A stretch of DNA of 32,000 nucleotides from Candidatus Saccharimonadota bacterium (GCF_008189405.1 NZ_CP043316.1:540001-572000); one strand, 5' to 3'; positions 8,014 to 32,000 are shown, numbered from the stretch's first letter. Numbers and translations are program-made. Notes: generated from the sequence alone by a model not told the origin.

Positions 8014-8397
8014 ATGACTTTAGCTTGTAATGCCGGATGTGTAAATTGTAGCTTTGGAATAGCTCCATCTGACTTAACTATTTTACCTGTAAAAAGAGTG
8101 AACGCTTCAAAACAGCCAGCCGCAACAATATTGGATAATGTCCCTATATTAAATGTTAAACCATTTGGAATGTGCATGACTCCATCAAATCCAGCTGTTG
8201 CATCAATTATTGCATCAAGCTTAGGAACTGTAACTCAAGCACCATGCATCCCTGCTATAGTTGCTCCATGGGTTGCTGGGAAACCAAACGTTTCAATTGG
8301 AGGAACTCCAGCTTTGAACAATCAATCAACAGCATTTTGTATATGGGGAGGAATAATCAGCTTTATTTACCCTGGACAAGTAACTGTACAAACTTAA
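8014..8397 (+). CDS. DUF4280 / PAAR-like domain protein (type VI secretion spike-tip family), 127 aa, no toxin extension
   Basis: The whole-length pattern is typical of DUF4280: N-terminal A-x-C-x-C-S-F-G, PAATILDNVPILNVKPFGMC, APCIPAIVAPWVAGKPNVSIGGTPALNNQS and C-terminal GQVTVQT. It is Gly/Ala/Pro/Cys-rich, in contrast to its neighbours. Confidence 0.8.
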   Translation: MTLACNAGCVNCSFGIAPSDLTILPVKRVNASKQPAATILDNVPILNVKPFGMCMTPSNPAVASIIASSLGTVTQAPCIPAIVAPWVAGKPNVSIGGTPALNNQSTAFCIWGGIISFIYPGQVTVQT

Positions 8398-17090: not shown

Positions 17091-17316
17091 TGAATGCCTA
17101 CTATAGTGAGCATAGCGAATCTATAGCATGGAAGGAACAAAATGCATTTAATTTCTAATAAGCAAAGATTATATGTGTAAGAAATTAGATATCAGGTTAG
17201 GCATGAAGCATGAATGCCTACTATAGTGAACAAAGTGAACCTATAGCATGGAAGGAACAAAATGCATTTAATTTCTAATAAGCAAAGATTATATGTGTAA
17301 GAAATTAGATATCAGG
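17091..17316. repeat. Direct duplication of a 106-bp element (17091-17196 and 17211-17316, period 120 bp), abutting the 3' end of tRNA-Ser
   Basis: The copies differ at 4 of 106 positions. All four differences lie between two self-complementary CTATAG hexamers (gagcatagcgaatc versus gaacaaagtgaacc). The 14-nt linker plus the start of copy 2 forms an inverted repeat, TAGGCAT-n9-ATGCCTA. Confidence 0.9.
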
Positions 17317-17400
17317 AAGGGAAGGGATTCGAACCCTCGATACGTTTAACCGTATACATGCTTTCCAAGCAGGCGCCTTCAGCCACTCGGCCACCCTTCC
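17314..17400 (-). tRNA. tRNA-Ser (anticodon GGA), long variable arm
   Basis: The reverse complement is GGAAGGGTGGCCGAGTGGCTGAAGGCGCCTGCTTGGAAAGCATGTATACGGTTAAACGTATCGAGGGTTCGAATCCCTTCCCTTCC. The acceptor is GGAAGGG/CCCTTCC, the anticodon loop TT-GGA-AA and the variable arm ATACG/CGTAT. The T loop is TTCGAAT. It is close to E. coli tRNA-Ser(GGA). Confidence 0.9.
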
Positions 17401-17407
17401 TAATCAA

Positions 17408-17481
17408 TCGGGGCGAGAAGATTCGAACTTCCGACCCCCTGCTCCCAAAGCAGATGCGCTACCAGACTGCGCTACGCCCCG
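17408..17481 (-). tRNA. tRNA-Pro (anticodon UGG)
   Basis: The reverse complement is CGGGGCGTAGCGCAGTCTGGTAGCGCATCTGCTTTGGGAGCAGGGGGTCGGAAGTTCGAATCTTCTCGCCCCGA. The acceptor is CGGGGCG/CGCCCCG, the anticodon loop TT-TGG-GA and the T loop TTCGAAT. It resembles E. coli tRNA-Pro. Confidence 0.92.
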
Positions 17482-17580
17482 ATGAATAAATAGTACAATA
17501 CCTCTATATAAAACACAATATTCACCCTAAAGAACACACTAAACATATCAAACTTCCCCACCATACTGTAGAATATTATT

Positions 17581-17910
17581 ATGCTAAATTCTTATCACAA
17601 AGGCATGTTTTACGAATTATTATCAATTTTGATCCTATCTATTAGAGGTCATAGAATTCTGAAATGGCGTTGCAAAACTCCTGTAGGTGAGATCGATATT
17701 ATTTCTAAAAAAGGGAAGCATATTTTTATCAATGAAGTAAAATACCGCAAAAACATCGAAGATGCATATCATTTTATAAACCCAAAGTACCAGAATAGAC
17801 TAGAAAAAACATATTATTGGTGGCTATATAATAATTCAAAATTTGAATCTCTGGAACCACAATTCAAGTATATTTTTTGGCATAAAATGTTTAGAATGAA
17901 GTATATATGA
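17581..17910 (+). CDS. yraN: YraN-family (UPF0102) predicted endonuclease
   Basis: The size is about 110 aa. The core GEIDIISKKGKHIFINEVKYR matches the YraN family signature (GEIDLI...vfVEVK.R). Confidence 0.75.
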   Translation: MLNSYHKGMFYELLSILILSIRGHRILKWRCKTPVGEIDIISKKGKHIFINEVKYRKNIEDAYHFINPKYQNRLEKTYYWWLYNNSKFESLEPQFKYIFWHKMFRMKYI

Positions 17911-18362
17911 CAAAATGGCACTTAATAACTGATGGTTCATGCTTAGGTAATCCTGGAAAGGGTGGATGGGCATTTATTCTTACAAATGAAGAAATAGAAA
18001 CTATCAAATCTGGATATGAAGAAACAACAACAAATAATCGTATGGAATTGCAAGCATTAATTAGTGGATTAAAACTTTTTGCATCTAAATATGATAACCC
18101 ATTAACAGTGACGATGGATAGCCAATATATTTTGAATGGGATTAAATCTTGGATGGCAAATTGGAAGAAGAACAATTGGAAAACAAGCGCAAAGACTGCA
18201 GTAAAAAACCAAGATTTGTGGCAAGAATTAGATAAAACTATGAACAATATGAAATTAAGTTTTAATTGGACTAGAGGGCATAATGGGCATATTCTACATG
18301 ACAGAGTTGATGTCATTGCTAGATGTGCTGCAACCCAGCATGCACGATGTCAATGTGCATAA
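17907..18362 (+). CDS. rnhA: Ribonuclease HI
   Basis: TDGSCLGNPGKGGWAFIL, TTNNRMELQALISGL, DSQYILNGIKSWMANWKKNNWKTS, VKNQDLWQEL and W.RGHNGH...DRVD are near-colinear with E. coli RNase HI. The gene overlaps yraN by 4 nt (ATGA). Confidence 0.92.
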   Translation: MTKWHLITDGSCLGNPGKGGWAFILTNEEIETIKSGYEETTTNNRMELQALISGLKLFASKYDNPLTVTMDSQYILNGIKSWMANWKKNNWKTSAKTAVKNQDLWQELDKTMNNMKLSFNWTRGHNGHILHDRVDVIARCAATQHARCQCA

Positions 18363-18550
18363 AATAAATAATGCAAAACAACTATAACAATTAATTACAA
18401 AATTTGAATATAATAATAATTTGTGAATCTGATAAAATCTTATAATAAACTTTACAGCATGTTATCTTGTAATTCTCAATTTCACTTAACATGATATAAC
18501 AGTTTTATTTATAAATTTACTCAAATATCATAGTTATTGATGAGCTTCTA

Positions 18551-18988
18551 TTACCTGCTCATAGCCATAAAATCAGACTCACAAACCAACACATCATTTA
18601 CAAATCCAGATCCAGAAAATTGGAAAATAGATCTTCTTTTTGATTTTTGTTTAACAATAAACTTCACATTATCACCTGGTTCGACAGACTTCCTGAATTT
18701 CGCTTTTTCAATTGACATGAATGCAACTCCACTTGGAATCTCTTCCTCATCATGTTTATAGGAATAGGCCACACACAATGTAGCAAGCTGAGCCATTGCT
18801 TCTATTAAAATCACACCTGGAACTACTGGATGATCTGGAAAGTGACCAGCAAAGAAATGTTCGTTAATAGTAAAACATTTATGCCCAATAGCAAACTCCC
18901 AAACTTTCACTTCTTCTATTTTATCTAAAAACAAAAATGGAAATCTATGAGGAATTAAATTTTGTATTTGCGCAGTATTAAATAGCAT
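18551..18988 (-). CDS. fabZ: 3-hydroxyacyl-[ACP] dehydratase FabZ
   Basis: IQNLIPHRFPFLFLDKI and FAGHFPDHPVVPGVILIEAMAQ are canonical FabZ motifs. Confidence 0.93.
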   Translation of the reverse strand: MLFNTAQIQNLIPHRFPFLFLDKIEEVKVWEFAIGHKCFTINEHFFAGHFPDHPVVPGVILIEAMAQLATLCVAYSYKHDEEEIPSGVAFMSIEKAKFRKSVEPGDNVKFIVKQKSKRRSIFQFSGSGFVNDVLVCESDFMAMSR

Positions 18989-19530
18989 TATTTATCATCT
19001 TTATTTAATTCTTGAATGATTTGATCTGTAACATTTGTTACAAATGCATTATCTTTCGAAAATGCAACAACTGATGCAACAGAAATTATAATCATATTTG
19101 AATTTTTATTTGTTATTTTCTCTGACTCTTTAATAACTTTTTGCTGAAATTTTTCAATTATATTATTTTTTAATGAATTCATTTCTTCACTTTTAGCTTC
19201 AACCTCTTTTTGGAAAGATTCTTGCTGTTTGATCAATTGATTTTTTGATTCTTTCAATGCATTCTTTTCAGAATCGTTTTTTGCCAATTCTTGTTTCTTT
19301 TTCAATGCTTCAAACTCACTATTTAGTTTGTTTTGTTTCTCTTGCCACTCTTTACTATACTCTGAATTAAGCCTAGTTAGTTTTTGCTTCAATTCTCTGA
19401 TCATATTTGATGAAGATGCAATTTTATCCATATCGATCATCGCAATTTTGATATTATTCGACTTAACATTTGTCTCAGCATTTGCAAATAAAGCAAATGA
19501 TACACAACACATTATGATTTTAAATAACAT
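18988..19530 (-). CDS. skp: OmpH/Skp-family periplasmic chaperone
   Basis: The signal peptide is MLFKIIMCCVSFALFANA. The protein is 180 aa with a K/E/Q-rich helical body. It occupies the conserved position between bamA and fabZ, and its stop overlaps the fabZ start by 1 nt. Confidence 0.7.
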   Translation of the reverse strand: MLFKIIMCCVSFALFANAETNVKSNNIKIAMIDMDKIASSSNMIRELKQKLTRLNSEYSKEWQEKQNKLNSEFEALKKKQELAKNDSEKNALKESKNQLIKQQESFQKEVEAKSEEMNSLKNNIIEKFQQKVIKESEKITNKNSNMIIISVASVVAFSKDNAFVTNVTDQIIQELNKDDK

Positions 19531-19605
19531 AATTCCTCCTTATAATACATTAATCTAAACTTGCCCACATTAAAAGAACTTTCTATAAAAAATTCTAACT
19601 TAAGA

Positions 19606-22233
19606 TTATCTTAAAAATCCAACATTCAGTGTATTAAACGCATTTAAAGGTGATTTTGATCCAAGAAGTGGATAGTTTAAGGAAATTCCTAGTCCAAACA
19701 TTCCTAATTTAAACTCTAATCCAGCTCCACATGATGCAACTGCTTTATACCTATTTTGCACTATATCTGCTGTATTATGATCCCATCCCCTTATATTACA
19801 TAATTCTCTTGGAACTTTTTGTGATTCCAACCCACAGTCCCATAAGCTTCCTACGTCAAGAAATGCGAACCATTTAGATTGAAATGCTTTTGGCAAAATA
19901 AATGGAGCAGTAAATGTTGCGCTAGCACTAACAAACCTTTTTCCACCTAAAGTATTAAATCTCAAAGTATCTCTTGGCCCATGATGATCAAACCCCCTTA
20001 CATTTGCAGATTTAAAATTATCAAACCAGCTATAATTATTTATCGGGATTATACTTCCTCCAGAAACTTTAATCACAAAATTATATTGATCTGTGAAGTT
20101 TCTTGTAAATTGCATAGATGCTATATTTTTTAGGAAATTTGAAGTTCCAATATTTAATGAAGTGCCTAATTTAGCATTTAATACATTCTTATCATCATAG
20201 CTAGTAACTGAAAAAATGTAATTGCAATTTAATGCAACCTGATTCTTCCATTGACCAAATTTCTTTACGTTTTTATCAAAAAAGCGAGTTATTCCAATTC
20301 CTGTAGCATGAACATCTTTAGAATTTTTGATATATTTTACGTCATCTTCAATTGCAATATGCTTTACACTTGGTGCTATTGCCAATGATATCCCATGATT
20401 TTTATTAGAATATTGAATACCTGCACGCAAATCAGACCCTCTTGTTTTTGTTAATACAACTTGATTATTTTCATTCCAATATTCTACTTTATTGTCTGCA
20501 TCATCTGCATTTAACCCATTAGGATTTGATTCTTTTGCAAGACTATCCGCATCAAGTTTTTTAGGAGCTAATTTGATATTATAATACTTATCATTATTTA
20601 CATTATTAGTTTTGTTCAATATGCCTGAGTGCTTCATTCTTTGTGCAATCACTTGATATTGATTAGATACCTTATCAGACCATGTATTAAAATTAATCAT
20701 ATTCTCTTTAAAGCTACTATCTGCTTTTGCTGGCAAGAAAAACAAATCTCCACCAACAAATAAGTGCAGTGGTTTTCCATTAATGAATCTTTCCTCTATC
20801 TCAGCTCCTAATGTTCTAGCATCACGAGATAAAGATAAATCTATTTGTACATTTTTACCTAGACCTAAGAAATTAATATCTTTATATCCAATTGCAAATT
20901 CATATTCCATTCTTTTCTGGAAACTTGCGCTTAATTTAAAAAGTATTGTTCCAGTTTTAGCTTCTTTATAATCTAATATTAAATCTACTAACCCATCATA
21001 CTCTTCAGGAACAATTGAAACATTCTCACAAAATCCAGATAACATTATATTTTTCTTACTTGCAAATATATTTCTATCAGATAAAATATCACCTGGCTCT
21101 ATAGCCATTCTTTTCAAGATTGCATTTTTATGTGTTCGTGTATTTCCATTAATAAATATATTATTTACTATTTTAGGTTGTGTTTTTGAAGTATGAAATT
21201 CTACATTTGCGTAACCTTTCTCCTTTATAATCTCATATCTAACTTTGTAATTATAATACCCTGAATCATGTAGCTTATCCTCTATAATAGCTTTGGCTTT
21301 TTTGATTTTCTCTTCTGAAAATACCATGCCTTTACTGATAATATCATGAATATCAATTTTTACAGGAGTGAATACTGCTATATTCTTAAATTTATACTGC
21401 ACTCCCTCTTCTAAGTTCACGACTAACACTTTATCATTATTAATCAATTCAATACTTATAGAAGTGATTTTAAAATCTAAATAACCTAGATTATGGGCGT
21501 ATTTCTCAAGCTGAATCTCACTTTGCTCAATAGAAGAAACACTAATACTTGTTTGTGTAAAAAGACCTAATACCGTTTTATTTTTTTTTGCTAAACTATT
21601 ATACAAATCATCTTTATGAAACTCTTTATTCCCAATAAATATTGCTTTTTGAACTAATTTTGGCTTCTTAACTGTAATGATAAATTTCAAGTTTATGCTG
21701 CCGTTCTCTTCATATGAATAGGACTTTACATCTACATATGCTGTTTCTTCAAACATTTGGTAAGTAGTACGCAATAAAGCTTCAGTTGATTTAATTGTTT
21801 GTGGTGAAATAAAGTTTCTTTTTTTCAGCCCTGTAACAGCTTCCCAATTTTCATTTAATGATACAGAATTTTCAACTTTATAAGTAACTTTCTTCAATAT
21901 TGGAAATTCTTCAACCTTCACATGCCATACGCCTTTTTTCTTTATTACATCAATCTTTTTAAAATAATTCTGCTCACTTAGAATTGATATAATATTATCT
22001 TTATCTATATCATGTATGGAATTTAATAAGGATTTAATCACATCTGTGGAAATTCGTTTATTTCCTTCAATGATATATTCTCGATCAGTAAGATGACTCT
22101 TCTCGTGTAATTCATTACTTATATCTGGTTTGGCAAATTCATGATTTATGGTTGATTTAGAAGGTTCACACTTCACGTAAGAAGCTGCAATTAAGTAACT
22201 AAATAAAATTGATAATAAAATAGAATTCATCAA
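19606..22233 (-). CDS. bamA: Outer membrane protein assembly factor BamA (875 aa)
   Basis: A signal peptide is followed by repeated POTRA-like modules, including FINGNTRTHKNAILKRMAIEPGDILS. The barrel starts at KEAKTGTILFKLSASF. The conserved loop-6 VRGF motif is present (SANVRGFDHHG). The gene overlaps rseP by 4 nt. Confidence 0.88.
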   Translation of the reverse strand: MMNSILLSILFSYLIAASYVKCEPSKSTINHEFAKPDISNELHEKSHLTDREYIIEGNKRISTDVIKSLLNSIHDIDKDNIISILSEQNYFKKIDVIKKKGVWHVKVEEFPILKKVTYKVENSVSLNENWEAVTGLKKRNFISPQTIKSTEALLRTTYQMFEETAYVDVKSYSYEENGSINLKFIITVKKPKLVQKAIFIGNKEFHKDDLYNSLAKKNKTVLGLFTQTSISVSSIEQSEIQLEKYAHNLGYLDFKITSISIELINNDKVLVVNLEEGVQYKFKNIAVFTPVKIDIHDIISKGMVFSEEKIKKAKAIIEDKLHDSGYYNYKVRYEIIKEKGYANVEFHTSKTQPKIVNNIFINGNTRTHKNAILKRMAIEPGDILSDRNIFASKKNIMLSGFCENVSIVPEEYDGLVDLILDYKEAKTGTILFKLSASFQKRMEYEFAIGYKDINFLGLGKNVQIDLSLSRDARTLGAEIEERFINGKPLHLFVGGDLFFLPAKADSSFKENMINFNTWSDKVSNQYQVIAQRMKHSGILNKTNNVNNDKYYNIKLAPKKLDADSLAKESNPNGLNADDADNKVEYWNENNQVVLTKTRGSDLRAGIQYSNKNHGISLAIAPSVKHIAIEDDVKYIKNSKDVHATGIGITRFFDKNVKKFGQWKNQVALNCNYIFSVTSYDDKNVLNAKLGTSLNIGTSNFLKNIASMQFTRNFTDQYNFVIKVSGGSIIPINNYSWFDNFKSANVRGFDHHGPRDTLRFNTLGGKRFVSASATFTAPFILPKAFQSKWFAFLDVGSLWDCGLESQKVPRELCNIRGWDHNTADIVQNRYKAVASCGAGLEFKLGMFGLGISLNYPLLGSKSPLNAFNTLNVGFLR

Positions 22234-23129
22234 AACATACCTTTAAAAAATGGACTTATATCTTTAAACATTACGAATATCATAATTGCAAAAGCAATAT
22301 ACATAGTAATCCCTGAAAATACTCGCGCAAACCTTGGGCTAATTAGATTTAGCACTTCATGCAAAATTCTACCTCCATCTAGTGGTAAGATTGGCATAAG
22401 ATTTATCACCCCTAATCCTATAGATAAGATAATTAACCAATTCAAAATATCAGCAAAATGATGATTCGCAATTATATTTTTAGTAGCTTTAATAACACTT
22501 ACAGGGCCATTTAATTTCAGTGACATATTCTTAATAGAACGAATCAAGTGGCTTGCTGTTTTAATAAATAAATTCACAGAATATTTGATAGAACAAATAA
22601 TAGATTTTACCAATCCAATTCTATTATATGACAAAGTTTCTTTAACCTGTTTGATATTATCACTCATCACGAAAGAATTATCTTTTAATATGATTTTATA
22701 CATTTTTTGATTGCTATTCGATTCCAAACTAATTGAGCCAATATAGACTTCTTCAATCGCAGATATCTCATTATTATTCAAATACATTTTATTAGCAGGT
22801 TGACCAAAGTAATATAAAGATATAAATGATATGAAAATTGAGAAAATTAGGTTCCCAATTGGTCCTCCCAAATATAAAAACACTTTAGGGAAGAATCGTA
22901 GATTCTGCTCTTCACATTGAATATATCCACCTAATGGAAGCAGCTTTATAACCCACTTTGTTTGTCTTTTATCTACATATGAAATAATATTAGGCCCAAA
23001 ACCAATAGAAAACTCCTTAACTTGAGCTCCATTCAATCGAGCTATAAAATAATGACCTAATTCATGAAATATTACTATGATACCTATTACAGACACTGTT
23101 AATATTAAATTTAATATATTTAAATGCAT
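22230..23129 (-). CDS. rseP: Site-2 (RIP) zinc metalloprotease RseP-like, shortened (299 aa)
   Basis: The HExxH motif lies in the first TM segment (IVIFHELGHYFIAR). The C-terminal motif is NLMPILPLDGGRILHE. The gene occupies the conserved position upstream of bamA. Confidence 0.8.
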   Translation of the reverse strand: MHLNILNLILTVSVIGIIVIFHELGHYFIARLNGAQVKEFSIGFGPNIISYVDKRQTKWVIKLLPLGGYIQCEEQNLRFFPKVFLYLGGPIGNLIFSIFISFISLYYFGQPANKMYLNNNEISAIEEVYIGSISLESNSNQKMYKIILKDNSFVMSDNIKQVKETLSYNRIGLVKSIICSIKYSVNLFIKTASHLIRSIKNMSLKLNGPVSVIKATKNIIANHHFADILNWLIILSIGLGVINLMPILPLDGGRILHEVLNLISPRFARVFSGITMYIAFAIMIFVMFKDISPFFKGMF

Positions 23130-23293
23130 ATTTCATTTTAGCTAATAAATAAATTCAGAGCAATGAACGCTGTAAAATAACACTTAGGCTAATAGTATTA
23201 ACATTACATCAATAAATCATGCTTCATGAAAAGAAAATGTATGTAATAATTAAAATAAAATTTACCTTTACAGATTATTTTTCTTGTTAAGCT

Positions 23294-24028
23294 ATGATTA
23301 ATAATAAGATAGAAAATTCTTTTTTGATGAATTGTTTCCAAGAATTTATAAATGAAGTATTAAAGTTTCGTGAATTAGTATTGTTTAATAAAACAAGCTC
23401 AAATGCTAAAGAAATACAGGAGACGTTAATCAGGTTTATTATTTATAAACGAGATTTAGCAATAGAAGAGGGCACATTAATAGAAGCAGGATATCATGAA
23501 ACTTCATATATTATGGCTGTATTTGCAGATGAAATCTTCATCAATCTAGATTGGGTTCATAAAGATGATTGGAAGAAAAATAATTTAGAGACTCAAGTAT
23601 TTGATACGCATATAGGTGGTAGAAAATTATTTGAGAATATTGATCGTTTCTTGGACTCTAATGCAACTTATAAATATGATATAGGAAGTGCATACTTGTT
23701 TTGCTTAGGTTTAGGTTTCCGTGGAAAATACAGAGGAATAGATGATCATAATACTATACAAAATTATAAAAATAAATTATTTGATATAATCAACAACTAT
23801 GAATCTAATGTGAATGACAATAGCTTATTCCCACAGGCTAAACAACATACAATTGTAAAGATCTCTACAGCAAGAATGAGCAGTTATAAAGTATGGTCCA
23901 TGATCCTTGGGATTACAGTGCTAATTTATGCAAGCTTCAGCTATCTTGTATGGTATAGATCTGTCAAAGAAATATCTACATTAATCGATATTAGCCAAAA
24001 AGATATAGAGAGTATTAAAAATGGATAA
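23294..24028 (+). CDS. tssL: Type VI secretion membrane-complex protein TssL (DotU/IcmH family), no peptidoglycan-binding extension
   Basis: The DotU-like cytoplasmic domain includes ETSYIMAVFADEIFINLDW...W and YDIGSAYLFCLGLGFRGKYRG (compare LE.yylCLaLGF.GrYr). A single C-terminal TM segment follows (VWSMILGITVLIYASFSYLVWY). The stop overlaps the tssM start (ATGGATAA). Confidence 0.75.
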   Translation: MINNKIENSFLMNCFQEFINEVLKFRELVLFNKTSSNAKEIQETLIRFIIYKRDLAIEEGTLIEAGYHETSYIMAVFADEIFINLDWVHKDDWKKNNLETQVFDTHIGGRKLFENIDRFLDSNATYKYDIGSAYLFCLGLGFRGKYRGIDDHNTIQNYKNKLFDIINNYESNVNDNSLFPQAKQHTIVKISTARMSSYKVWSMILGITVLIYASFSYLVWYRSVKEISTLIDISQKDIESIKNG

Positions 24029-27000
24029 CTTATTAACTACATTTATTATTAGCATGGTATCTGCATCAACATTCATGCTTTTAAATAAATCATATGTGAA
24101 AATGCCAAAAATAATTGCTTTTTTACGTAAGCATATCAAAAGCTTTGCAAAGTATGTTGCAAATTTATTCAGATTCGAAGCAGTATTTGATGATAGAATA
24201 AATAAATCATTTGACCATAATATGCATATTTTGTACTCATTTTTAGGTAGTGAAAATTTCAAATATAAGCTCCCATTTATAATGGTTATTGGATCTGAAA
24301 GATCTGGAAAATCTGCCATAATTAATAGCTTGAAATTAGAGCGTACAATTGATGATCTAACTGAAAAAAATGAATTTTGTAATTGGTCATTTTTCAATGA
24401 TGCTGTATTTCTTGAGATGCATAGTGCATTATTTTCATCAGGAGATTCATATGTATCCTCAGATGCAAGTAATTGGAATAAATTATTAAACACACTATCT
24501 TACCATAGACCTGAACGACCAATTGATAGCTTAGTTCTAACTATTTCTATAGAAGATATTCTTGATCACTCTATTAATTTAAGCAATATTGCAGAGCATT
24601 ATTATATCAAACTATGGAAAATGCAAAAAACATTCAAAGTGAATTTTCCTATTTATGTTGTCTTTACTCATACAGATTTGATTCCAGGATTTTCACACTT
24701 TGTGCATGCTATACAAGAAACCCTACAAGATGACATATTCGGATGGTCTAATCCACATTCAGTTAATGCAATTGAAAATATAGAATTTATAGAAGATGGA
24801 ATTGATCAAATTATTAATCGATTAATGTTAATACAACAAGAAATCATGGCAAAAGAAATATCTTCAGAAAATGGAATGTTCGTCTTTCCATTTGAAATAC
24901 ATAAACTCAAGCAAAGATTATCAGAATTTATGTACTATATTTTTAAAAGAAATTCACTACACGATCATTTTATGTTACGAGGCATTTATTTCACTGGATC
25001 ATCAAAGCACAATGCATATGTAAACCATGAATTCTCACAATCATTACAAAGTGTAGAGTTTGGATCGATTGTTAAAGCATCTTCATTGCATACTTCAGAT
25101 GATATATTATTTACTACTAATTTATTTACAGATAAGATATTCAAAGAAAAAGGACTTACTTTCCCATTATCTGGAAATATACTTAATAATTCTGCGAAAG
25201 TTAGAATGCTACAATATTTAGTTGGCTCTGTAATAATAGGTGGAATTGTAAGCCTAATCCACTATGATTTGAGAATGAACAAAGTAAAATCTGAATTAAA
25301 GCATAATATTTCTAATATTCGATTATCAATTCATAATGCAAAATTAATATATAAAGGGTCATATGATGAGTTAGATAATGCAATATTTGAAGAGCAGTCT
25401 ATTAAAATAATTAATGCCATGAAGCAAATACACCCTAAAGATTTATTTTCATACTCTATGCCACCATCCTGGTTTTCTTCGATCCAAAGCAGGTTGAACA
25501 CTCTATTAGGCAGAGCATATAATACTGTTGTTTTCAGATTTATTATGAATAAATTTAATAATGATCTGAAAATGCTTGTATCTGATTACACTAATGATAA
25601 AATATCATACAAAAAGAATTTTCACCCATTACATTCCCGTGAATTCATTGCACTAAATTCATATATCACTAAAATTGCTAAATTAGAAAATATACACTAT
25701 AAAATCAAACGAGTCCCACATCTAAGAAATATTAATGATGTAATATATATAATGAAGCATCTCCTAAATATAGATGTGAGCAAGAGCCTTATACATAATA
25801 AGCGTGTATTCCAAAATGCATTAAAACATGTGCAAGTTGATATTCACTCATTTGATTCATACAAGAAAAATATTCGCATTAAATCTACAGGATTATTTGA
25901 TAAATTTATAAATCATGCATTAGAATATGATAAAGTAATTCCTAATATTACAAAAATAGAAAGTATTCTAGAGCGTATTGAGCAAAAAGAGAATTACGAT
26001 ATAGAATCATTAACTTCTTATTTTAATCAACTAACATCTGTATTTAACAAACAAGATTTGCTGTGGATATCTAGCAATAAATCCAAATTTGGTGAACAAA
26101 TAAACCACATGCTATATAAAGCGCAGGATAGTAATGTTTTAGGCCTTAAAATTGCACAAAACATGAAAGAAAAAATTGAATTAAAGATTAAACAGCTAAA
26201 GCAAAAAGTAGTCAAACATAGACTACCTATGATTGGTGTAATATTTCAAGATAATGATAATGGACAATTAGATTTTTCTAAAGATTTTGCAGAATTCCAA
26301 GGAATGCTTAATTTACTTGCTGGACAAAGTTTTATGAAAAACACTGATTATAAGATCAATCCTGACCTAAAAAGTAATATAGTTAAATGGAATTTACTCA
26401 AACTGGCAGAAATTGTAAAAATAATTAATGAGTTCAATAAATTCTCCAGCCATAAGATTCTGTATAAGCATGAAAAAATCACACATGCCATGGCAATGGT
26501 CACATGCAGTAGTGTCATTAAAAATATTAAATATAACCTAGTCAGTAGCCAAAGCCAATTTGATAATCTTGAATCTGATAATACTTTATTATCTAATATT
26601 CATCAAAACCTTGATGAAGCAAACAAATATCTCATTAAAATTTTATTATTTGTCAAAAACCGAAACTCTAATCTATTTACAGAGCTAAAAAATGTTTTAC
26701 AAAAGCAAAATATATTATTCTTAGAAAAGTTAGATCAATTACTACAAAAGAAAGATTTATATAATATTTCTAACTCTGATCTATATTTAAATGGCACAAA
26801 AGAAGATATCCAAGAATACATTGCAAAACAGCAGGAACAAATTAAATACCTATCAGAACTTTCTATACCTTCTGTACAAATACTAAGCAAAATCTCAGAT
26901 ATAGGATTAAAAATCTACTCTCCTATATTAAATAAATGGTCTGAAATCAATGATGCAGTAGTAAGAAGCAAGGAAGGAAAAAGCAATCAAATCAAATCAA

Positions 27001-27848
27001 TAGAGACACTGATAATTACGTCTATTTTGAATAAGAAAAACTGTGATTATATGATTGCAGATCTTGATCAAAATAGTACAAGCTATTTCGAAAGGAAAAA
27101 ACATAGCATATTACTTTCTATGAGTAAAAAATGCTTATTTGATAATTATAATACAATCAAAGTTCAATATAGAAAAATTGTACAATATTTTAATCAGTAT
27201 ATGGCACACAGATTTCCATTTAATAAGAGCGCTAATGTAGAGATCACACCTGAAGAAGCTAAGCAATTCTTAGCAATTTGGAATGAGAAATCAATGAATT
27301 TAGATCTACTATCACATTACTTGAAACCGAACCATGCATGGATTGCTTTCCTTAAACGAACACAAAGTATAATCCCATGGCTAGAATCCATGATAGATGG
27401 CAAAAAACATCCAGGGTCATTTATGGTAACTCTGAGGACAAATCGTGATCAAGAAAAACTTGGAGATCACATTGCTATTTGGGACCTAAAATTCGGAGAT
27501 AAAACCATTCACATGAATATGGACCCACAAGAGATTGAACTTAAAAACTACAATATGCACAATATCTTGCGCTTATCTAAGGAAAGTAAGCACTCATTCG
27601 AAAATGGAAAATCCTATGAAGTTAAATATAATGGTTTCTTTGGAATCGTAAAATTAATAAATAAATTCTGTGCAAATCACTGCAAACAAAATAAACAGCT
27701 TAGATTGAGCATTCCACTACTAAGTGAAAATAGTAATTTAACTGTATGGTGTGATATTGAGCTAAAAGGGAAGCTAAAAGAATGGCCAACTTTCCCTAAG
27801 CAAGCCCCTAATTTCCCTAAAAGCGAGGTAAAATTATGCATCAATTAA
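24021..27848 (+). CDS. tssM: Type VI secretion membrane-complex protein TssM (IcmF family), 1275 aa
   Basis: An N-terminal TM segment is followed by Walker A (VIGSERSGKS), NWSFFNDAVFLE (compare WWFT.EAVLiD), FPIYVVFTHTDLIPGF (compare PVYLV.TK.DLl.GF) and LRGIYFTGS. A TM segment lies near aa 400 (LQYLVGSVIIGGIVSLIHY). A presumably periplasmic region of about 860 aa follows. Confidence 0.85.
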   Translation: MDNLLTTFIISMVSASTFMLLNKSYVKMPKIIAFLRKHIKSFAKYVANLFRFEAVFDDRINKSFDHNMHILYSFLGSENFKYKLPFIMVIGSERSGKSAIINSLKLERTIDDLTEKNEFCNWSFFNDAVFLEMHSALFSSGDSYVSSDASNWNKLLNTLSYHRPERPIDSLVLTISIEDILDHSINLSNIAEHYYIKLWKMQKTFKVNFPIYVVFTHTDLIPGFSHFVHAIQETLQDDIFGWSNPHSVNAIENIEFIEDGIDQIINRLMLIQQEIMAKEISSENGMFVFPFEIHKLKQRLSEFMYYIFKRNSLHDHFMLRGIYFTGSSKHNAYVNHEFSQSLQSVEFGSIVKASSLHTSDDILFTTNLFTDKIFKEKGLTFPLSGNILNNSAKVRMLQYLVGSVIIGGIVSLIHYDLRMNKVKSELKHNISNIRLSIHNAKLIYKGSYDELDNAIFEEQSIKIINAMKQIHPKDLFSYSMPPSWFSSIQSRLNTLLGRAYNTVVFRFIMNKFNNDLKMLVSDYTNDKISYKKNFHPLHSREFIALNSYITKIAKLENIHYKIKRVPHLRNINDVIYIMKHLLNIDVSKSLIHNKRVFQNALKHVQVDIHSFDSYKKNIRIKSTGLFDKFINHALEYDKVIPNITKIESILERIEQKENYDIESLTSYFNQLTSVFNKQDLLWISSNKSKFGEQINHMLYKAQDSNVLGLKIAQNMKEKIELKIKQLKQKVVKHRLPMIGVIFQDNDNGQLDFSKDFAEFQGMLNLLAGQSFMKNTDYKINPDLKSNIVKWNLLKLAEIVKIINEFNKFSSHKILYKHEKITHAMAMVTCSSVIKNIKYNLVSSQSQFDNLESDNTLLSNIHQNLDEANKYLIKILLFVKNRNSNLFTELKNVLQKQNILFLEKLDQLLQKKDLYNISNSDLYLNGTKEDIQEYIAKQQEQIKYLSELSIPSVQILSKISDIGLKIYSPILNKWSEINDAVVRSKEGKSNQIKSIETLIITSILNKKNCDYMIADLDQNSTSYFERKKHSILLSMSKKCLFDNYNTIKVQYRKIVQYFNQYMAHRFPFNKSANVEITPEEAKQFLAIWNEKSMNLDLLSHYLKPNHAWIAFLKRTQSIIPWLESMIDGKKHPGSFMVTLRTNRDQEKLGDHIAIWDLKFGDKTIHMNMDPQEIELKNYNMHNILRLSKESKHSFENGKSYEVKYNGFFGIVKLINKFCANHCKQNKQLRLSIPLLSENSNLTVWCDIELKGKLKEWPTFPKQAPNFPKSEVKLCIN

Positions 27849-28708
27849 TTGAAATCAAAAATGCACTCACTAATCCAATAGCAAACATAAGAAATTCCAA
27901 TATATTTGTACAGCTAGAGACACTAGTTGAGCAACACAGCGATGATCTTCCTAAAGGGGATTGGTCTATATCTAATGATAAAAAAGATTGGACTAAAATA
28001 TCTACACTTTGCTTAGAAATATTAGTTAATAATAGTAAAGATATACAAGTCATAATATGGCTTATTGAGGCAAATATTCATTTACGTAAAGATGTAAAAG
28101 AATCATTTGAGATTCTTGAATATATTATTGATAATCACTGGGATATCCAAGATAAAGACTTCGCATATAAGGCTTTTACTAACTTTGATAAAACATTAAA
28201 TATAATGCTTCCTCAGTATTTTGCTTTATATAAAAATGACAATATCTATTACACTCTTGCAAGTTTCATACAGAATAAATCCATGACTGATTTTGAGAAG
28301 CTTACCACTCAGGAATACGAGTATTCGCTGGAATTAGCAAATATTATCCAATCTCTCAAAGAAAAAGCAAGTGCAAAGATGGATAATAATATGATGGCTA
28401 AATCCATTACTATTACACAGAATTTTATTCAGAAAGTTAGGAATATCATGCAGAATCAACATATACAAAATGATTCTATAAAACAAAATATAGAAACAGA
28501 ATCTAACAATATAAACACGCATAATATTACATCACGCGAACAAGCATACCAAATGATTCAGGAAATAATGCTATATTTGAAAACTCATGATCCACATAGT
28601 GCAACTCCATATTTATTGCAAAAAGCATATGAGTGGGAGAAAAAATCATTTGTAGATATCATGAATGACTTTAATGACCCTGTTATCATTCAAAAAATAT
28701 TTCAATAG
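27836..28708 (+). CDS. tssA: Type VI secretion protein TssA / ImpA-family protein (short form, 290 aa)
   Basis: The ImpA_N-like segment is KDWTKISTLCLEILVNNSKDIQVIIWLIEANIHL. The C-terminal PHSATPYLLQKAYEW resembles the HSP.PYLL.RA..W motif of ImpA-family proteins. A GAGG SD lies 8 nt upstream. The gene overlaps the tssM 3' end by 13 nt. Confidence 0.75.
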   Translation: MHQLIEIKNALTNPIANIRNSNIFVQLETLVEQHSDDLPKGDWSISNDKKDWTKISTLCLEILVNNSKDIQVIIWLIEANIHLRKDVKESFEILEYIIDNHWDIQDKDFAYKAFTNFDKTLNIMLPQYFALYKNDNIYYTLASFIQNKSMTDFEKLTTQEYEYSLELANIIQSLKEKASAKMDNNMMAKSITITQNFIQKVRNIMQNQHIQNDSIKQNIETESNNINTHNITSREQAYQMIQEIMLYLKTHDPHSATPYLLQKAYEWEKKSFVDIMNDFNDPVIIQKIFQ

Positions 28709-28827
28709 ACATATATCAGAATTATAAGATGTAACCACACACTTACATTAAGTATAAAGTAATCATATAATCATAATCTGTAAAGCCTTAGAATGCTTAT
28801 TTCAGGTAGGTTTTCCTGCAAAATCTC

Positions 28828-28856
28828 TTGTTATTTAGGTGTAAATGTAACATAAT
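28828..28856 (+). promoter_or_regulatory. Possible sigma70-like promoter for the downstream orphan gene: TTGTTA, 17-nt spacer, CATAAT
   Basis: The -35-like TTGTTA (28828-28833) and -10-like CATAAT (28851-28856) have a 17-nt spacing. They are followed by a strong SD (AAGGGAG) 6 nt before the ATG at 28880. Such hexamers arise easily by chance in AT-rich DNA. Confidence 0.25.
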
Positions 28857-28879
28857 AAGTCAATTTATAAGGGAGATAT

Positions 28880-30490
28880 ATGAAGAATCTAAGAATTTTA
28901 TCACTGGTATTATGCTTATCAGTTATGGCAAATGGCCCAGAATTAACGGAATGCACAAGTAAGTTTGCATATTGTTTGAAGAGTCCTGGTCTCGCAACAG
29001 AAGATGCTGTGCAAACCAATCAAATGGAAAAATATACTCAAGCAATTTATGATGAGTATAATCAATATGCATTAAGCATTATTCCAAGCTTGGAAGGCAA
29101 GAAGTTAAATGTAATTAATATGATGCAAATAGGATATGAAACAAACGAAGATGATGCAGAAGAACGAGCAGAATATATTAATGATTTAAATGAAGGATCA
29201 CTGGAAGAATTATATGAAGGATTAACAGAAATTGAAGAACACACTATTCTGCGATACGTTTATGAATCTCGTCCTTACATAATGAAGCAGAGTGCTCGCT
29301 ATGCGGAGTTAGCAGATGCGTATGGTAATTATGACATGGATGGGGATGTATTCAAAAATGCTGTGTATCTTGCTGACAGGTCTCAAAATGGAACATTAGA
29401 AGTTGATTGGGACTTAGAATCAGATAGGTTGGAAGCTCATAGTTTGTACTACAATTCAATATATGAGTACAACCTAGAAAATCCAGGATTATCGATGCTG
29501 AGCGATAAAGCGGAAGCAGCAAAGGTTAATGCAACTATTTTACAATCCCTATCAAAAGACAAGGAACATTTTACAAACATTGCAAAGCATATTGCGTTAA
29601 AGAAGATGGCAGTTGAGGCGGCAAAAGGCTTGGAGAAATTTAAAATCATGCTTGATGAGGTTGTTAGACAGGATGCATCTTGGAATGTAATTAGAACTGT
29701 CAAGGTAGGGAATGCTATGCAAAAGCATTTTAAGGAGGCTGATAAGTATGTTAGCTGCCAATCATGGATTCAAGTAACAGATGAAGGAAGTGGCATTGGA
29801 ACTTATAGAACTATTTTTGGAAGTAAAGATAGAATAAAATTTGCTGAGATCATAGATTTATTTAATACAGATAGAGCAAAATGCAAAGAAACTGTTTTGT
29901 GTAGATTTAGCAAAGGTTTAGAAAACTATAATAATGATTTTAATAGATTATTGCTATACCCAGATTTCAACATAAGATTTGATCAATTAACTGAGATGAC
30001 TGTTAATGCACTAGAGGATATGTTAAATGCAATTATTAGGAGTAAGCTTTATTATAAAGTTGGAAATGGAGGAGGAGACCGAAAATTCCAAGCATATTAT
30101 CCCGGGGAGGAGCGTAGAGGTGACGTTGAGTTTTTCAAGAAGGATTATGCTGACTGGTATGCAAAATCTGATGGAGACAAGGCTGTTACAGCATTAAGAA
30201 AAGAAGAAGCTGCTAAGCTTGCGAAGGAACGTGATCATGAGGATTATATCGTACACTTGTTTGACAGAGCAGAGGAATTGCTGAATGGATACGAAGGTGA
30301 TAAGGACATGATGGGAGAGATCTTTGGAAACTTCTTGTTCTTAAGATGGGCAGAATACAAGGAGAATGCTAGAGGGCGAGACTTCATGAACAGTGCAAAG
30401 GATGCATTAGAGGGCATGTTAAAACTGGAATCTTCAGACATTGAAAAACTAAATGCAATCTCAAACGAAAAAATCAAATCCCTGCAATAA
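28880..30490 (+). CDS. Hypothetical secreted protein (536 aa), no recognised family, directly downstream of tssA
   Basis: A strong SD (AAGGGAG) precedes the ATG. The signal peptide is MKNLRILSLVLCLSVMANG. The long uninterrupted ORF encodes an acidic, helix-rich sequence. Only short antisense shadow ORFs overlap it. Confidence 0.65.
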   Translation: MKNLRILSLVLCLSVMANGPELTECTSKFAYCLKSPGLATEDAVQTNQMEKYTQAIYDEYNQYALSIIPSLEGKKLNVINMMQIGYETNEDDAEERAEYINDLNEGSLEELYEGLTEIEEHTILRYVYESRPYIMKQSARYAELADAYGNYDMDGDVFKNAVYLADRSQNGTLEVDWDLESDRLEAHSLYYNSIYEYNLENPGLSMLSDKAEAAKVNATILQSLSKDKEHFTNIAKHIALKKMAVEAAKGLEKFKIMLDEVVRQDASWNVIRTVKVGNAMQKHFKEADKYVSCQSWIQVTDEGSGIGTYRTIFGSKDRIKFAEIIDLFNTDRAKCKETVLCRFSKGLENYNNDFNRLLLYPDFNIRFDQLTEMTVNALEDMLNAIIRSKLYYKVGNGGGDRKFQAYYPGEERRGDVEFFKKDYADWYAKSDGDKAVTALRKEEAAKLAKERDHEDYIVHLFDRAEELLNGYEGDKDMMGEIFGNFLFLRWAEYKENARGRDFMNSAKDALEGMLKLESSDIEKLNAISNEKIKSLQ

Positions 30491-31240
30491 TATGTCTGTA
30501 TTAATCCATAAACTTAACAAACCTATATAAGATTAAGGAATTAATATATTTGATTTCCTACTTAAAGCTCATTTATGGAAGTTAAATATAGTAGTTTTCA
30601 GATTATTTATTTTCAGAGCATATGCAAGTATTATCATGAAATTATATAAAACAAGAAAATATTATTATGCATTCCCTAAGCTGTTAAGATGAAGTTGCTT
30701 TATAATGGAGTGAAAATCATAGCTCTCGTGAAATAAATACTTATCTTATGGAATGAGTTAGTTACATTAGGCAAAACTCAGTCTATAATCTTTTAATGTA
30801 CCGAGTCCTTTCTCAGCAAATCACTAAAAAATATAAGTTTACTGTAGAAATATTGTGCACGGCTGATACTGCCACATCATTCTAATATGGTGAATTATAT
30901 ATATTAGAAAAGATAAAGAAAATTCTAAGTTAAATTAAAAAAACATTCAAAATCATCTGAATATTATTTGCTATAATTATAAAATCAATAAGCGAAAATC
31001 ATGCATAAGCAAACTTCTAATAAAAACATTAATTGAAAGGGGAATTATAAAAGTTTTGAAGCATTATGCTTTGAGTTATAAATATATGGTTTGTATGATT
31101 TAACAAATATGCAAATGAAGAAAATCAAAACATATCATAGCATGGAAGAAATCAGCCATAGGATAACAAACAAAATCACATAATAACTTACAAATGCAAA
31201 AATCTAATCTACTAGCTATTTAGATAAATTGGATTTTAGA

Positions 31241-31951
31241 TTATTTTGTTGTTTCATTATCAGATTGCTTTGACTCTGATTTATCTGATTTTGGTTTATC
31301 TTCAGATTGAGCATCGTTTTGTTCAATGCTTTTTCTTGAAACAATTATGTTCCATTTTCTTTCCATTCTAATAATGAAGAAAGGAAGTTTTTTATTTCTC
31401 ATGGTTTGCAATATATTGGAAGACTTTCCACCTATTGATCTAAATTCAATTTGACTTGAAGGAAGAAATGCTTTCACACCCCACGGAAGTAAAGCAACTA
31501 TAAACCCACCACGTACTTTTTCTATAATAGTTCCTTCAACCAATTTTTTGCTTTGAAAAATATCTTCTAATTCTTTCCAAGATCTAATATGGTTAACTTT
31601 AGAAAAACTAACTACTAAAGATCCATTAGAATCTTCGTGTTTTTCGATCCAAACTGAAATCAAATCTCCAAGATTAGGAACCTCTCCAAATCCATTAATT
31701 TTGAATTCGTTTATATCTATTTTACCTTCGGCTTTAATGCCAATATTAACCCATACATAATCTTTAGTAATGCTACTTACTGTAGCTTGAACTATGCTTT
31801 TTTCTCTGGGCATAGAAGATAACTTAGTCAGTTCTGACATTGCACTTACGTGTTCTGATTTAACCTCTACTATTTGATCGTATTTTGTTTGCTTTGGTTT
31901 TAAACTATGCATGTCAACATTATATTCCAACACTTTGTTATAATCAAGCAT
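31241..31951 (-). CDS. S1 RNA-binding-domain protein resembling only the first two domains of ribosomal protein S1 (236 aa)
   Basis: SIVQATVSSITKDYVWVNIGIKAEGKIDINEF ... GDLISVWI ... LVVSFSK and LVEGTIIEKVRGGFIVALLPWGVKAFLPSSQI ... FFIIRMERKWNIIVSRKS are colinear with S1 domains 1-2 (compare GTVV.I.kD.v.VD.GlKSEG.I...EF and G.i...vKGGf.V.l.giraFLPgS). It ends in a low-complexity K/S/D/E tail. Confidence 0.7.
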   Translation of the reverse strand: MLDYNKVLEYNVDMHSLKPKQTKYDQIVEVKSEHVSAMSELTKLSSMPREKSIVQATVSSITKDYVWVNIGIKAEGKIDINEFKINGFGEVPNLGDLISVWIEKHEDSNGSLVVSFSKVNHIRSWKELEDIFQSKKLVEGTIIEKVRGGFIVALLPWGVKAFLPSSQIEFRSIGGKSSNILQTMRNKKLPFFIIRMERKWNIIVSRKSIEQNDAQSEDKPKSDKSESKQSDNETTK

Positions 31952-32000
31952 ATTAGTAGATATTGCTAAAAATGCACATATAATATATAGATTAGAGGTA

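What the first reader, a model, noticed from the sequence alone, without database searches (positions are those of the whole stretch)
23294..28708. Isolated, translationally coupled tssL-tssM-tssA type VI secretion module with no other T6SS core gene in 32 kb
Seen in sequence:
- Three same-strand ORFs overlap, tssL/tssM by 8 nt (ATGGATAA) and tssM/tssA by 13 nt.
- They carry DotU, IcmF and ImpA signatures; the motifs are listed in the feature entries.
- The module is transcribed divergently from the rseP-bamA-skp-fabZ envelope cluster.
- No ORF in the window resembles TssB/TssC sheath, Hcp, VgrG, TssE/F/G/K baseplate, ClpV or the TssJ lipoprotein.

Established knowledge:
- Canonical T6SS loci keep about 13 core genes together.
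- TssJ-L-M form the envelope-spanning complex and TssA primes or caps assembly.
- TssJ-less systems have been reported (for example Agrobacterium and Acinetobacter).

Inference: in what looks like a reduced, AT-rich, host-associated genome, there are three possibilities.
- The T6SS is scattered in small modules.
- It is a strongly divergent T6SS subtype.
- A retained membrane-complex remnant has been put to another use.

Any of these would be worth characterising. The TssM periplasmic region is very long (about 860 aa) and poorly conserved by eye.
Basis: partly seen in the sequence, partly recalled or inferred. Interest (0 to 1): 0.8.

Follow-up and report, generated by a model that had tools for sequence, protein, structure and literature searches.

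The report
Known split T6SS module, Cytomitobacter primus
The three genes are real type VI secretion genes (tssL, tssM, tssA), but they are one piece of the scattered, "modified" secretion system already published for this protist endosymbiont and its relatives, so the finding is correct and not new.

Summary
Three tightly packed same-strand ORFs (23294-28708) encode TssL/DotU, TssM/IcmF and TssA. They overlap by 8 and 13 nt and are transcribed divergently from rseP-bamA-skp-fabZ.

The window is Candidatus Cytomitobacter primus, a ~622-kb Holosporales endosymbiont of the protist Diplonema. All three genes are already annotated in GenBank.

Two papers cover the finding:
- George et al. (bioRxiv 10.1101/719211) list tssABCEFGIKLM, vgrG and iglG/PAAR for this genome, and report Hcp and TssJ as missing.
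- Midha et al. 2021 (PMC8163844) describe Holosporales T6SS genes as scattered over four or more loci, including a conserved [tssK-tssL-tssM-tssA] module.

My comparison of 80 related loci shows where the module comes from. Free-living relatives carry one collinear cluster, tssJ-like-K-L-M-A-B-C-hcp-E-F. Holosporales keep K-L-M-A alone, and the Cytomitobacter, Nesciobacter and Gromoviella loci keep only L-M(-A).

The module is also less isolated than stated. A PAAR-like DUF4280 gene lies at 8014-8397. In the sister assembly, vgrG lies about 15 kb downstream of tssA.

The divergent TssM periplasmic region is shared by the whole clade. It is not a Cytomitobacter oddity.

Verdict: already known, low interest.

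The parts
23294..24028 (+). tssL (DotU family), 244 aa. It has a cytoplasmic DotU domain, one C-terminal TM segment (aa 200-218) and a short periplasmic tail. GenBank QEK38771.
   Evidence: Pfam DotU 97.8 bits and TIGR03349 90.1 bits. Clade HMM 196 bits. PDB 4v3i (VCA0115) E 3.6e-9. Hydropathy. Identity.
24021..27848 (+). tssM (IcmF family), 1275 aa. Layout: weak N-terminal TM segment (aa 3-21); cytoplasmic NTPase domain with Walker A GSERSGKS (aa 91-98); second TM segment (aa 396-414); 861-aa periplasmic region that is mostly helical with a C-terminal beta domain. GenBank QEK38772 (FZC34_02565).
   Evidence: IcmF-related_N 156.8 bits; TIGR03348 159 bits, below its cut-off of 388. Clade HMM 675 bits over aa 52-1266. 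hhalign to canonical TssM: N-terminal half 100% probability; C-terminal ~170 aa 86.6% probability. AlphaFold models with pLDDT 86.3 and 92.8.
27836..28708 (+). tssA, 290 aa. A short form with an ImpA_N domain plus a C-terminal domain. A GAGG sequence lies 9 nt upstream of its ATG, inside the 3' end of tssM. GenBank QEK38773.
   Evidence: ImpA_N 49.3 bits; TIGR03363 103.6 bits, below its cut-off of 160.85. Clade HMM 124 bits in two stretches. PDB TssA C-terminal domain 6h8e E 9e-4. Sequence read.
23130..23293 (.). 164-bp AT-rich spacer between the divergent rseP and tssL starts. It is the presumed promoter region for the three-gene unit.
   Evidence: Sequence read. The promoter scan is uninformative: 58 sites found against 59.9 expected. 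A promoter here is inferred only.
8014..8397 (+). PAAR-like spike-tip gene (DUF4280, IglG-like), 127 aa. GenBank QEK38758.
   Evidence: Pfam DUF4280 101.2 bits. NCBIfam T6SS_IglG 45 bits, below its cut-off of 200. The Nesciobacter orthologue (47% identity) sits next to rseP and close to tssL-tssM. Listed as iglG/PAAR in George et al. Table S3.
28880..30490 (+). Lineage-specific 536-aa protein with an N-terminal signal-peptide-like segment, 171 bp downstream of tssA and with its own AGGGAG ribosome-binding site. It belongs to a three-paralog family; the other two copies flank vgrG in the sister assembly. It is not a conserved part of the module.
   Evidence: No Pfam, NCBIfam or PDB match. Only 2 relatives among 1.8 billion representative proteins. 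Paralogs at 70-86% identity lie next to ywqK-like/vgrG. Absent downstream of tssA in C. indipagum and Gromoviella.

Best explanation
This is the inner-membrane-complex and assembly-factor unit (tssL-tssM-tssA) of the chromosomal type VI secretion system of Candidatus Cytomitobacter primus. It was inherited vertically within the Holosporales. It is what remains at this locus after an ancestral collinear cluster, tssJ-like-K-L-M-A-B-C-hcp-E-F, was progressively broken up.

Mechanism, inferred from what is established for these protein families:
- TssL and TssM form the envelope-anchored complex on which the baseplate docks.
- TssA, which carries ImpA_N plus an oligomerising C-terminal domain, coordinates baseplate docking and sheath polymerisation.
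- The 8-nt and 13-nt overlaps, and the Shine-Dalgarno sequence embedded in tssM, make the three genes a single translationally coupled unit.
- The sheath, baseplate, VgrG and PAAR-like parts are encoded elsewhere in the genome.

What is shown here: gene identities, clade membership, synteny history and intactness.

What is inferred: co-transcription, complex formation and an actively firing system.
For: Identity:
- All five proteins I looked up match C. primus GenBank entries exactly.
- Family HMMs pass the Pfam cut-offs.
- Clade-specific HMMs give 196, 675 and 124 bits.

T6SS rather than T4BSS:
- About 40 free-living relatives carry the same K-L-M-A block directly followed by tssB-tssC-hcp-tssE-tssF.

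Break-up series:
- Less reduced Holosporales and related alphaproteobacterial MAGs keep K-L-M-A alone among housekeeping genes.
- C. indipagum and Gromoviella keep L-M-A.
- Nesciobacter keeps L-M next to the same fabZ-skp-bamA-rseP block.

Selection:
- A 1275-codon ORF stays intact in a 30% GC genome and in every relative examined.
- Walker A is conserved in all 21 homologues checked.
- Tight gene packing is conserved across the relatives.

Rest of the system:
- George et al. Table S3 lists tssABCEFGIKLM, vgrG and iglG/PAAR for C. primus.
- I found the PAAR-like gene in the window.
- I found vgrG plus a ywqK-like gene about 15 kb downstream in the sister assembly.

No sign of recent transfer:
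- GC content of the module (27-32%) matches its flanks.
Against: - I could not scan the whole genome. The presence of tssB, C, E, F, G and K rests on the published table, not on my own search.
- Hcp and TssJ are reported missing. None was found in the ~60 kb I could read. A firing contractile system is therefore not assured.
- C. primus is also reported to lack tssH/clpV.
- TssM fails the NCBIfam equivalog cut-off (159 bits against 388).
- TssM has no Pfam IcmF-related or IcmF_C hit.
- A high-confidence model of the TssM periplasmic part did not retrieve any solved TssM by Foldseek.
- There are no expression data for this organism.
Confidence: 0.85

Rival explanations
1. A retained membrane-complex relic. 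TssL-TssM(-TssA) persists for a function other than anchoring a firing T6SS, for example an envelope or NTPase role, because the tube (Hcp), the outer-membrane anchor (TssJ) and ClpV are gone.
For: - Hcp and TssJ are reported missing in all diplonemid endosymbionts, and tssH is absent from the C. primus list.
- Nesciobacter keeps tssL-tssM but has no tssA at this locus, and none is listed for it.
- The module sits beside the envelope-biogenesis genes rseP-bamA-skp in two genera.
Against: - Sheath, baseplate, VgrG and PAAR-like genes are reported to be retained in the same ~620-kb genomes. That is hard to explain without a working machine.
- 'Missing' TssJ and Hcp may be a detection problem. 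The tssJ-like lipoprotein of this clade is invisible to Pfam at threshold (E 0.0038). A tssJ-like and an Hcp-like gene were found in a related Holosporales genome.
- The rseP-bamA neighbourhood is not conserved in C. indipagum or Gromoviella.
Confidence: 0.1
2. The genes are IcmF/IcmH(DotU) of a type IVB (Dot/Icm) secretion system rather than T6SS parts.
For: The TssL protein scores 48.9 bits on NCBIfam IcmH_DotU_IVB, just under that model's cut-off of 50. DotU and IcmF families are shared between the two kinds of system.
Against: - An ImpA_N/TssA gene is translationally coupled to tssM.
- Homologues at full-length alignment sit inside complete tssK-L-M-A-B-C-hcp-E-F clusters.
- No Dot/Icm gene was seen in the ~60 kb examined.
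Confidence: 0.01
3. A recently acquired mobile fragment of a foreign T6SS island.
For: The module is flanked by unrelated housekeeping genes. A lineage-specific paralog family and an invertible segment lie next to it.
Against: - Base composition equals the flanks.
- The same module, with decreasing identity (58%, 31%, 24%), is found in C. indipagum, Nesciobacter and Gromoviella.
- No integrase or transposase gene was found in the window. The three tRNA genes it holds lie several kb from the module.
Confidence: 0.02

Closest known systems
Scattered Holosporales T6SS with the conserved [tssK-tssL-tssM-tssA] locus (Midha et al. 2021, ISME J, PMC8163844; George et al. 2019/2020, bioRxiv 10.1101/719211; review PMC11909080)
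   Same: Same proteins, same order L-M-A, same tight packing and same isolation among housekeeping genes. vgrG is paired with a ywqK-like gene at another locus. Hcp and TssJ are not detected by standard models.
   Different: In the Cytomitobacter, Nesciobacter and Gromoviella loci tssK is no longer attached upstream of tssL. Here rseP is the divergent neighbour instead. TssA is shortened to 290 aa, against 350-408 aa in the clade.
Collinear tssJ-like-K-L-M-A-B-C-hcp-E-F clusters of free-living bacteria (Azospirillum, Stellaceae, Pyrinomonadaceae, Gemmatimonadota, Desulfobacterales, Sorangium; loci L016-L089)
   Same: - The TssL, TssM and TssA sequence families are the same, with full-length HMM alignment.
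- TssM carries only the Pfam IcmF-related_N domain.
- TssM has a single N-terminal hydrophobic segment.
   Different: Those clusters are complete and contiguous, and they include Hcp and a tssJ-like lipoprotein. The window holds only L-M-A.
Canonical T6SS-i membrane complex TssJ-TssL-TssM (for example enteroaggregative E. coli; named from my own knowledge)
   Same: - DotU-type TssL with a C-terminal anchor.
- TssM with a Walker A NTPase domain and a large periplasmic region ending in a beta domain.
- RYPF-like and GxW/F..L motifs align to the canonical C-terminal region.
   Different: - Two rather than three predicted TM segments.
- No Pfam IcmF-related or IcmF_C hit.
- The profile finds no solved TssM, and Foldseek finds none either.
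- No TssJ detected.
TssJ-less or non-canonical membrane complexes (Acinetobacter, PMC10564176 and PMC6602968; listed by search only, not read in detail)
   Same: T6SS in which the outer-membrane lipoprotein is not recognisable and extra periplasmic proteins may take part.
   Different: I found no homology between the Acinetobacter accessory proteins and anything here. The comparison is an analogy only.

Membership tests
TssL / DotU family | DotU domain above the curated threshold | tested here: met
   Pfam PF09850 97.8 bits (cut-off 27). TIGR03349 90.1 bits (cut-off 89.95).
TssL / DotU family | Single C-terminal membrane anchor after the cytoplasmic domain | tested here: met
   One hydropathy segment at aa 200-218 of 244. 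This is a crude Kyte-Doolittle scan.
TssM / IcmF family (T6SS) | IcmF-related N-terminal NTPase domain with Walker A | tested here: met
   PF14331 156.8 bits. GSERSGKS at aa 91-98, conserved in all 21 homologues checked. hhalign to canonical TssM gives 100% probability over aa 60-525.
TssM / IcmF family (T6SS) | Full-length equivalog score (NCBIfam TIGR03348) | tested here: not met
   159 bits against a cut-off of 388. Only aa 59-421 matched.
TssM / IcmF family (T6SS) | Periplasmic IcmF-related (PF06761) and IcmF_C (PF06744) domains; fold like solved TssM | tested here: inconclusive
TssM / IcmF family (T6SS) | Three transmembrane segments (two N-terminal, one before the periplasmic domain) | tested here: not met
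   Two segments by hydropathy (aa 3-21 and 396-414). Canonical P0060 and P0063 show three. The single N-terminal segment is shared by the whole clade. No dedicated TM predictor was available.
TssA | ImpA_N domain above threshold | tested here: met
   PF06812 49.3 bits (cut-off 26.9).
TssA | Equivalog score and C-terminal oligomerisation domain | tested here: inconclusive
   TIGR03363 103.6 bits, below its cut-off of 160.85. aa 223-269 match the solved TssA C-terminal domain 6h8e at E 9e-4. The clade HMM matches both the N- and C-terminal parts.
Complete type VI secretion system in this genome | Sheath (TssB, TssC), baseplate (TssE, F, G, K), spike (VgrG, PAAR), tube (Hcp), TssJ and ClpV encoded in the same genome | not testable with these tools
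   Only ~60 kb of the ~622-kb genome could be read. In it I found the PAAR-like gene and vgrG, and no J, K, B, C, Hcp, E or F. The published table lists tssABCEFGIKLM, vgrG and PAAR, and reports Hcp and TssJ missing.
Holosporales [tssK-tssL-tssM-tssA] module | tssK immediately upstream of tssL | tested here: not met
   rseP lies divergently upstream. No TssK HMM hit in the window or the 60 kb read. tssK is attached in the less reduced Holosporales and related loci, for example L007, L009, L011-L014, L033, L058 and L060.
Type IVB (Dot/Icm) IcmF/IcmH | IcmH_DotU_IVB equivalog score; other Dot/Icm genes present | tested here: not met
   48.9 bits against a cut-off of 50. No Dot/Icm genes in the regions read. 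Relatives sit in tssB/C/hcp clusters.

The most novel reading that the evidence does not exclude
The Cytomitobacter T6SS may really work without a recognisable Hcp tube, TssJ anchor or ClpV. It would use the two-TM TssM variant. The lineage-specific family of 532-536-aa proteins with signal-peptide-like N-termini would then serve either as a new periplasmic or outer-membrane accessory of the membrane complex, or as its main cargo. One copy lies directly after tssA and two flank vgrG, and an ~11-kb invertible segment lies between two of them.
Probability: 0.1. Interest if true: 0.6.

Novelty: already known. Interest (0 to 1): 0.15.

Why it matters
As a discovery it matters little. The genes are annotated in GenBank. 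The "modified" T6SS of this organism is published, and so is the scattered [tssK-tssL-tssM-tssA] arrangement in other Holosporales families.

Its residual value is as context for one open question: how can a contractile secretion system that appears to lack Hcp, TssJ and, in this species, ClpV still be kept under selection in ~600-kb endosymbiont genomes?

The comparative series assembled here gives clade-specific profiles. The series runs from the complete collinear cluster, through K-L-M-A, to L-M-A and L-M. These profiles could be used to look for the supposedly missing parts. They already show that the clade's tssJ-like lipoprotein escapes Pfam at threshold.

Tried and rejected
Searches that led nowhere:
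- A search with the N-terminal 396 aa of C. indipagum VgrG returned nothing, not even the protein itself. It was meant to locate further T6SS loci, and it cost one search.
- A GTDB genome scan with a TssK alignment gave 80 useful relatives. I therefore could not place tssK, B, C, E, F or G in this genome myself.
- Looking up the 294-aa paralog P0128, to see the window's own arrangement beyond 32000, failed because it is not on record.
- The promoter and terminator scan is at background level in this AT-rich DNA, so I make no claim from it.

Ideas considered and rejected:
- The 536-aa downstream gene as a conserved TssJ substitute. It is absent from this position in C. indipagum, Nesciobacter and Gromoviella, and it is essentially restricted to C. 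primus.
- Small unknown ORFs upstream of tssL in Gromoviella as a divergent Hcp. Two of the three have pilin-like N-termini, judged by eye; none matches the clade Hcp.
- The 485-aa (14783-16240) and 253-aa (2835-3596) ORFs of unknown function as T6SS parts. They have no similarity to any T6SS-linked protein in the relatives.
Full report
**What is there.** The window has about 30% GC throughout. Three + strand ORFs occupy 23294-24028, 24021-27848 and 27836-28708. Reading the junctions confirms the overlaps...AAA AAT GGA TAA against ATG GAT AA (8 nt), and ATGCATCAATTAA (13 nt). A GAGG lies 9 nt before the tssA start. Upstream, a 164-bp spacer separates tssL from the divergently transcribed rseP-bamA-skp-fabZ genes.

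**Family signatures.**
- The first protein hits Pfam DotU at 97.8 bits.
- The second hits IcmF-related_N at 156.8 bits.
- The third hits ImpA_N at 49.3 bits. All three are above their gathering scores.
- NCBIfam agrees on the families. However, TssM (159 bits against 388) and TssA (103.6 against 160.85) fall below the equivalog cut-offs, and TssM matches only over aa 59-421.

**Whose genome it is.**
- The TssM protein is 100% identical to a protein of Candidatus Cytomitobacter primus.
- The five proteins I looked up are exact matches to GenBank entries QEK38771-38774 and QEK38758. These are annotated as DotU family, TssM N-terminal domain protein (the RefSeq name; QEK38772 itself is 'hypothetical protein'), TssA, hypothetical and DUF4280.
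- A sister assembly, OX638200.1 (622,378 bp), is 99.97% identical over window 14021-30537.

**What is already published.**
- George et al. (bioRxiv 10.1101/719211, the Current Biology 2020 study) sequenced this organism. They state that all diplonemid endosymbionts have a 'modified T6SS' that retains most core components but lacks the inner tube (TssD/Hcp) and TssJ.
- Their Table S3 lists tssABCEFGIKLM, tssI/vgrG, cts2N and iglG/PAAR for C. primus.
- Midha et al. [quoted passage not shown] They also found a tssJ-like and an Hcp-like gene in their genome.
- A 2025 review calls the T6SS conserved in almost all Holosporales and 'probably non-standard'.
The genes lie at several loci rather than one.

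**Origin of the module.** I fetched the context of TssM relatives. I also fetched 80 GTDB loci found with a TssK alignment, and mapped T6SS genes on them by tblastn. The loci fall into a series:
1. About 40 loci from free-living bacteria carry one collinear block, tssJ-like-K-L-M-A-B-C-hcp-E-F. These include Azospirillum, Stellaceae, Pyrinomonadaceae, Gemmatimonadota, Desulfobacterales and Sorangium.
2. Holosporales and related endosymbiont-like alphaproteobacterial MAGs keep K-L-M-A, ending after tssA, among housekeeping genes. Some retain the tssJ-like lipoprotein. Examples are Caedibacter, Finniella, Holosporaceae UBA7879, and loci L007 and L009. In Odyssella and a Paracaedibacteraceae MAG, tssA lies divergently upstream of K-L-M.
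3. C. indipagum and Gromoviella keep only L-M-A. Nesciobacter keeps only L-M, next to the same fabZ-skp-bamA-rseP block and a DUF4280 gene.

HMMs built from these loci score the window proteins at 196 (TssL), 675 (TssM, aligned over aa 52-1266) and 124 bits (TssA). The window module is therefore a vertically inherited remnant of a stepwise break-up. It is neither an odd acquisition nor a T4BSS IcmF/DotU pair.

**How isolated it is.**
- With the clade HMMs, no six-frame ORF of at least 40 aa in the window matches TssJ-like, K, B, C, Hcp, E or F at E<1.
- The same holds, with no hit below E = 0.02, for ~60 kb of the sister assembly (OX638200.1 147,732-207,379).
- In the sister assembly a 998-aa VgrG (Phage_GPD, Phage_base_V, Gp5_trimer_C) lies about 15 kb downstream of tssA. 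It has an adjacent 181-aa protein with a weak MORN_2 match, consistent with ywqK-like.

**The TssM protein.**
- Walker A (GSERSGKS, aa 91-98) is conserved in all homologues checked.
- Hydropathy gives two TM segments rather than the canonical three. The single N-terminal segment is shared by the whole clade, including the members with complete clusters.
- The periplasmic part (861 aa) is at the short end for the clade.
- Profile comparison with canonical TssMs is certain for the N-terminal half. It gives 86.6% probability (E 4.5e-6) for the last ~170 aa, aligning RYPF-like and GxW/F..L motifs.
- The clade profile finds no TssM in the PDB by sequence.
- AlphaFold models are confident: pLDDT 86.3 for aa 415-1275 and 92.8 for aa 1014-1275. 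They show a long helical region plus a C-terminal beta domain.
- Foldseek against the PDB did not list any TssM chain, and more sensitive libraries were unavailable.
- Homology of the periplasmic region to canonical TssM is therefore likely at the C-terminus and unproven in the middle.
- The clade's tssJ-like lipoprotein reaches only E 0.0038 on Pfam T6SS-SciN. This shows that 'TssJ missing' calls in this clade can be detection failures.

**TssL and TssA.** TssL matches the solved V. cholerae VCA0115 structure (E 3.6e-9). TssA is short, 290 aa against 350-408 in the clade. It keeps ImpA_N and a C-terminal stretch that matches the solved TssA C-terminal domain 6h8e (E 9e-4).

**The gene after tssA.**
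- ORF 28880-30490 encodes a 536-aa protein with a signal-peptide-like N-terminus (MKNLRILSLVLCLSVMANG..., judged by eye) and its own AGGGAG ribosome-binding site.
- It has no family or PDB match and only two relatives among 1.8 billion representative proteins.
- It is one of three C. primus paralogs (70-86% identity). The other two flank ywqK-like/vgrG.
- A 431-aa protein next to C. indipagum vgrG shares the MKNLRIL start and weak similarity (E 0.003 to the 536-aa protein; 2e-5 to its 535-aa paralog).
- The gene is not at this position in the other genera, so it is not a conserved part of the module.
- It may be cargo or an accessory protein. This is speculation.

**Mechanism.**
- Shown: identities, clade membership, synteny history, intact reading frames and conserved tight packing.
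- Inferred from established T6SS biology: TssL and TssM build the envelope complex; TssA primes baseplate docking and sheath polymerisation; translational coupling links synthesis of the three products.
- Open: whether the system fires, given the reported absence of Hcp, TssJ and ClpV.

**Verdict.** The finding is accurate but already known, so I score interest low. The most novel reading still open is a working Hcp-, TssJ- and ClpV-less T6SS with lineage-specific accessory proteins. It is a literature-level question that this window alone cannot settle.

Noticed in passing
window 29250-32000; L091:9952-12702; L001:14860-16517: The two C. primus assemblies differ by an inversion of about 11 kb. 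The segment carries two LRR genes, a secretin, bacA, dapB, a glyoxalase, asd, tlc and an S1-domain ORF. It is bracketed by inverted paralogs (the 536-aa gene after tssA and a 535-aa gene beside vgrG) that share a near-identical ~1.3-kb 3' part. The window follows one orientation and OX638200.1 the other.
   Followed up: partly
L091:11462-18496 (OX638200.1, about 15 kb downstream of tssA): A vgrG island holds a 535-aa paralog, a 181-aa protein with a weak MORN_2 match (ywqK-like), a 998-aa VgrG and a 532-aa paralog. LRR proteins and a secretin lie between it and tssA in that assembly.
   Followed up: partly
window 9013-9303: A perfect 94-bp tandem repeat (3.1 copies) duplicates the 5' end and upstream region of dnaQ. 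This creates two extra 42-aa ORFs that start with the dnaQ N-terminus.
   Followed up: no
window 17090-17316: A 120-bp direct repeat (1.9 copies, 96% identity) ends where the tRNA-Ser gene (17313-17401) begins, next to tRNA-Pro.
   Followed up: no
window 22230-23129 and 31241-31951: Shortened housekeeping proteins. RseP is only 299 aa and matches the RseP model in two separated stretches, which suggests the middle (PDZ) part is lost. The S1-domain ORF is only 236 aa and matches just the first ~200 positions of 30S protein S1 models.
   Followed up: no
L012:9358-9966 (Caedibacter sp. 37-49); L008:6981-7520: The lipoprotein encoded directly upstream of tssK in this T6SS clade has lipobox-like sequences (VVSC, FAAC, judged by eye). 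It is conserved in 55 of the fetched loci but reaches only E 0.0038 on Pfam T6SS-SciN. Published 'TssJ absent' statements for some Holosporales may therefore be threshold artefacts.
   Followed up: partly
L005:4159-4542 (Gromoviella agglomerans): A 127-aa ORF about 3 kb upstream of tssL has a weak gp25/TssE match (Pfam E 0.0044; clade TssE HMM E 0.023).
   Followed up: no
TssM homologues P0011-P0047 versus P0060 and P0063: The whole TssM clade that carries only Pfam IcmF-related_N has one N-terminal hydrophobic segment and about 90-140 aa before Walker A. This clade includes Holosporales, Azospirillum, Acidobacteriota and Planctomycetota. Canonical TssMs have two segments.
   Followed up: partly
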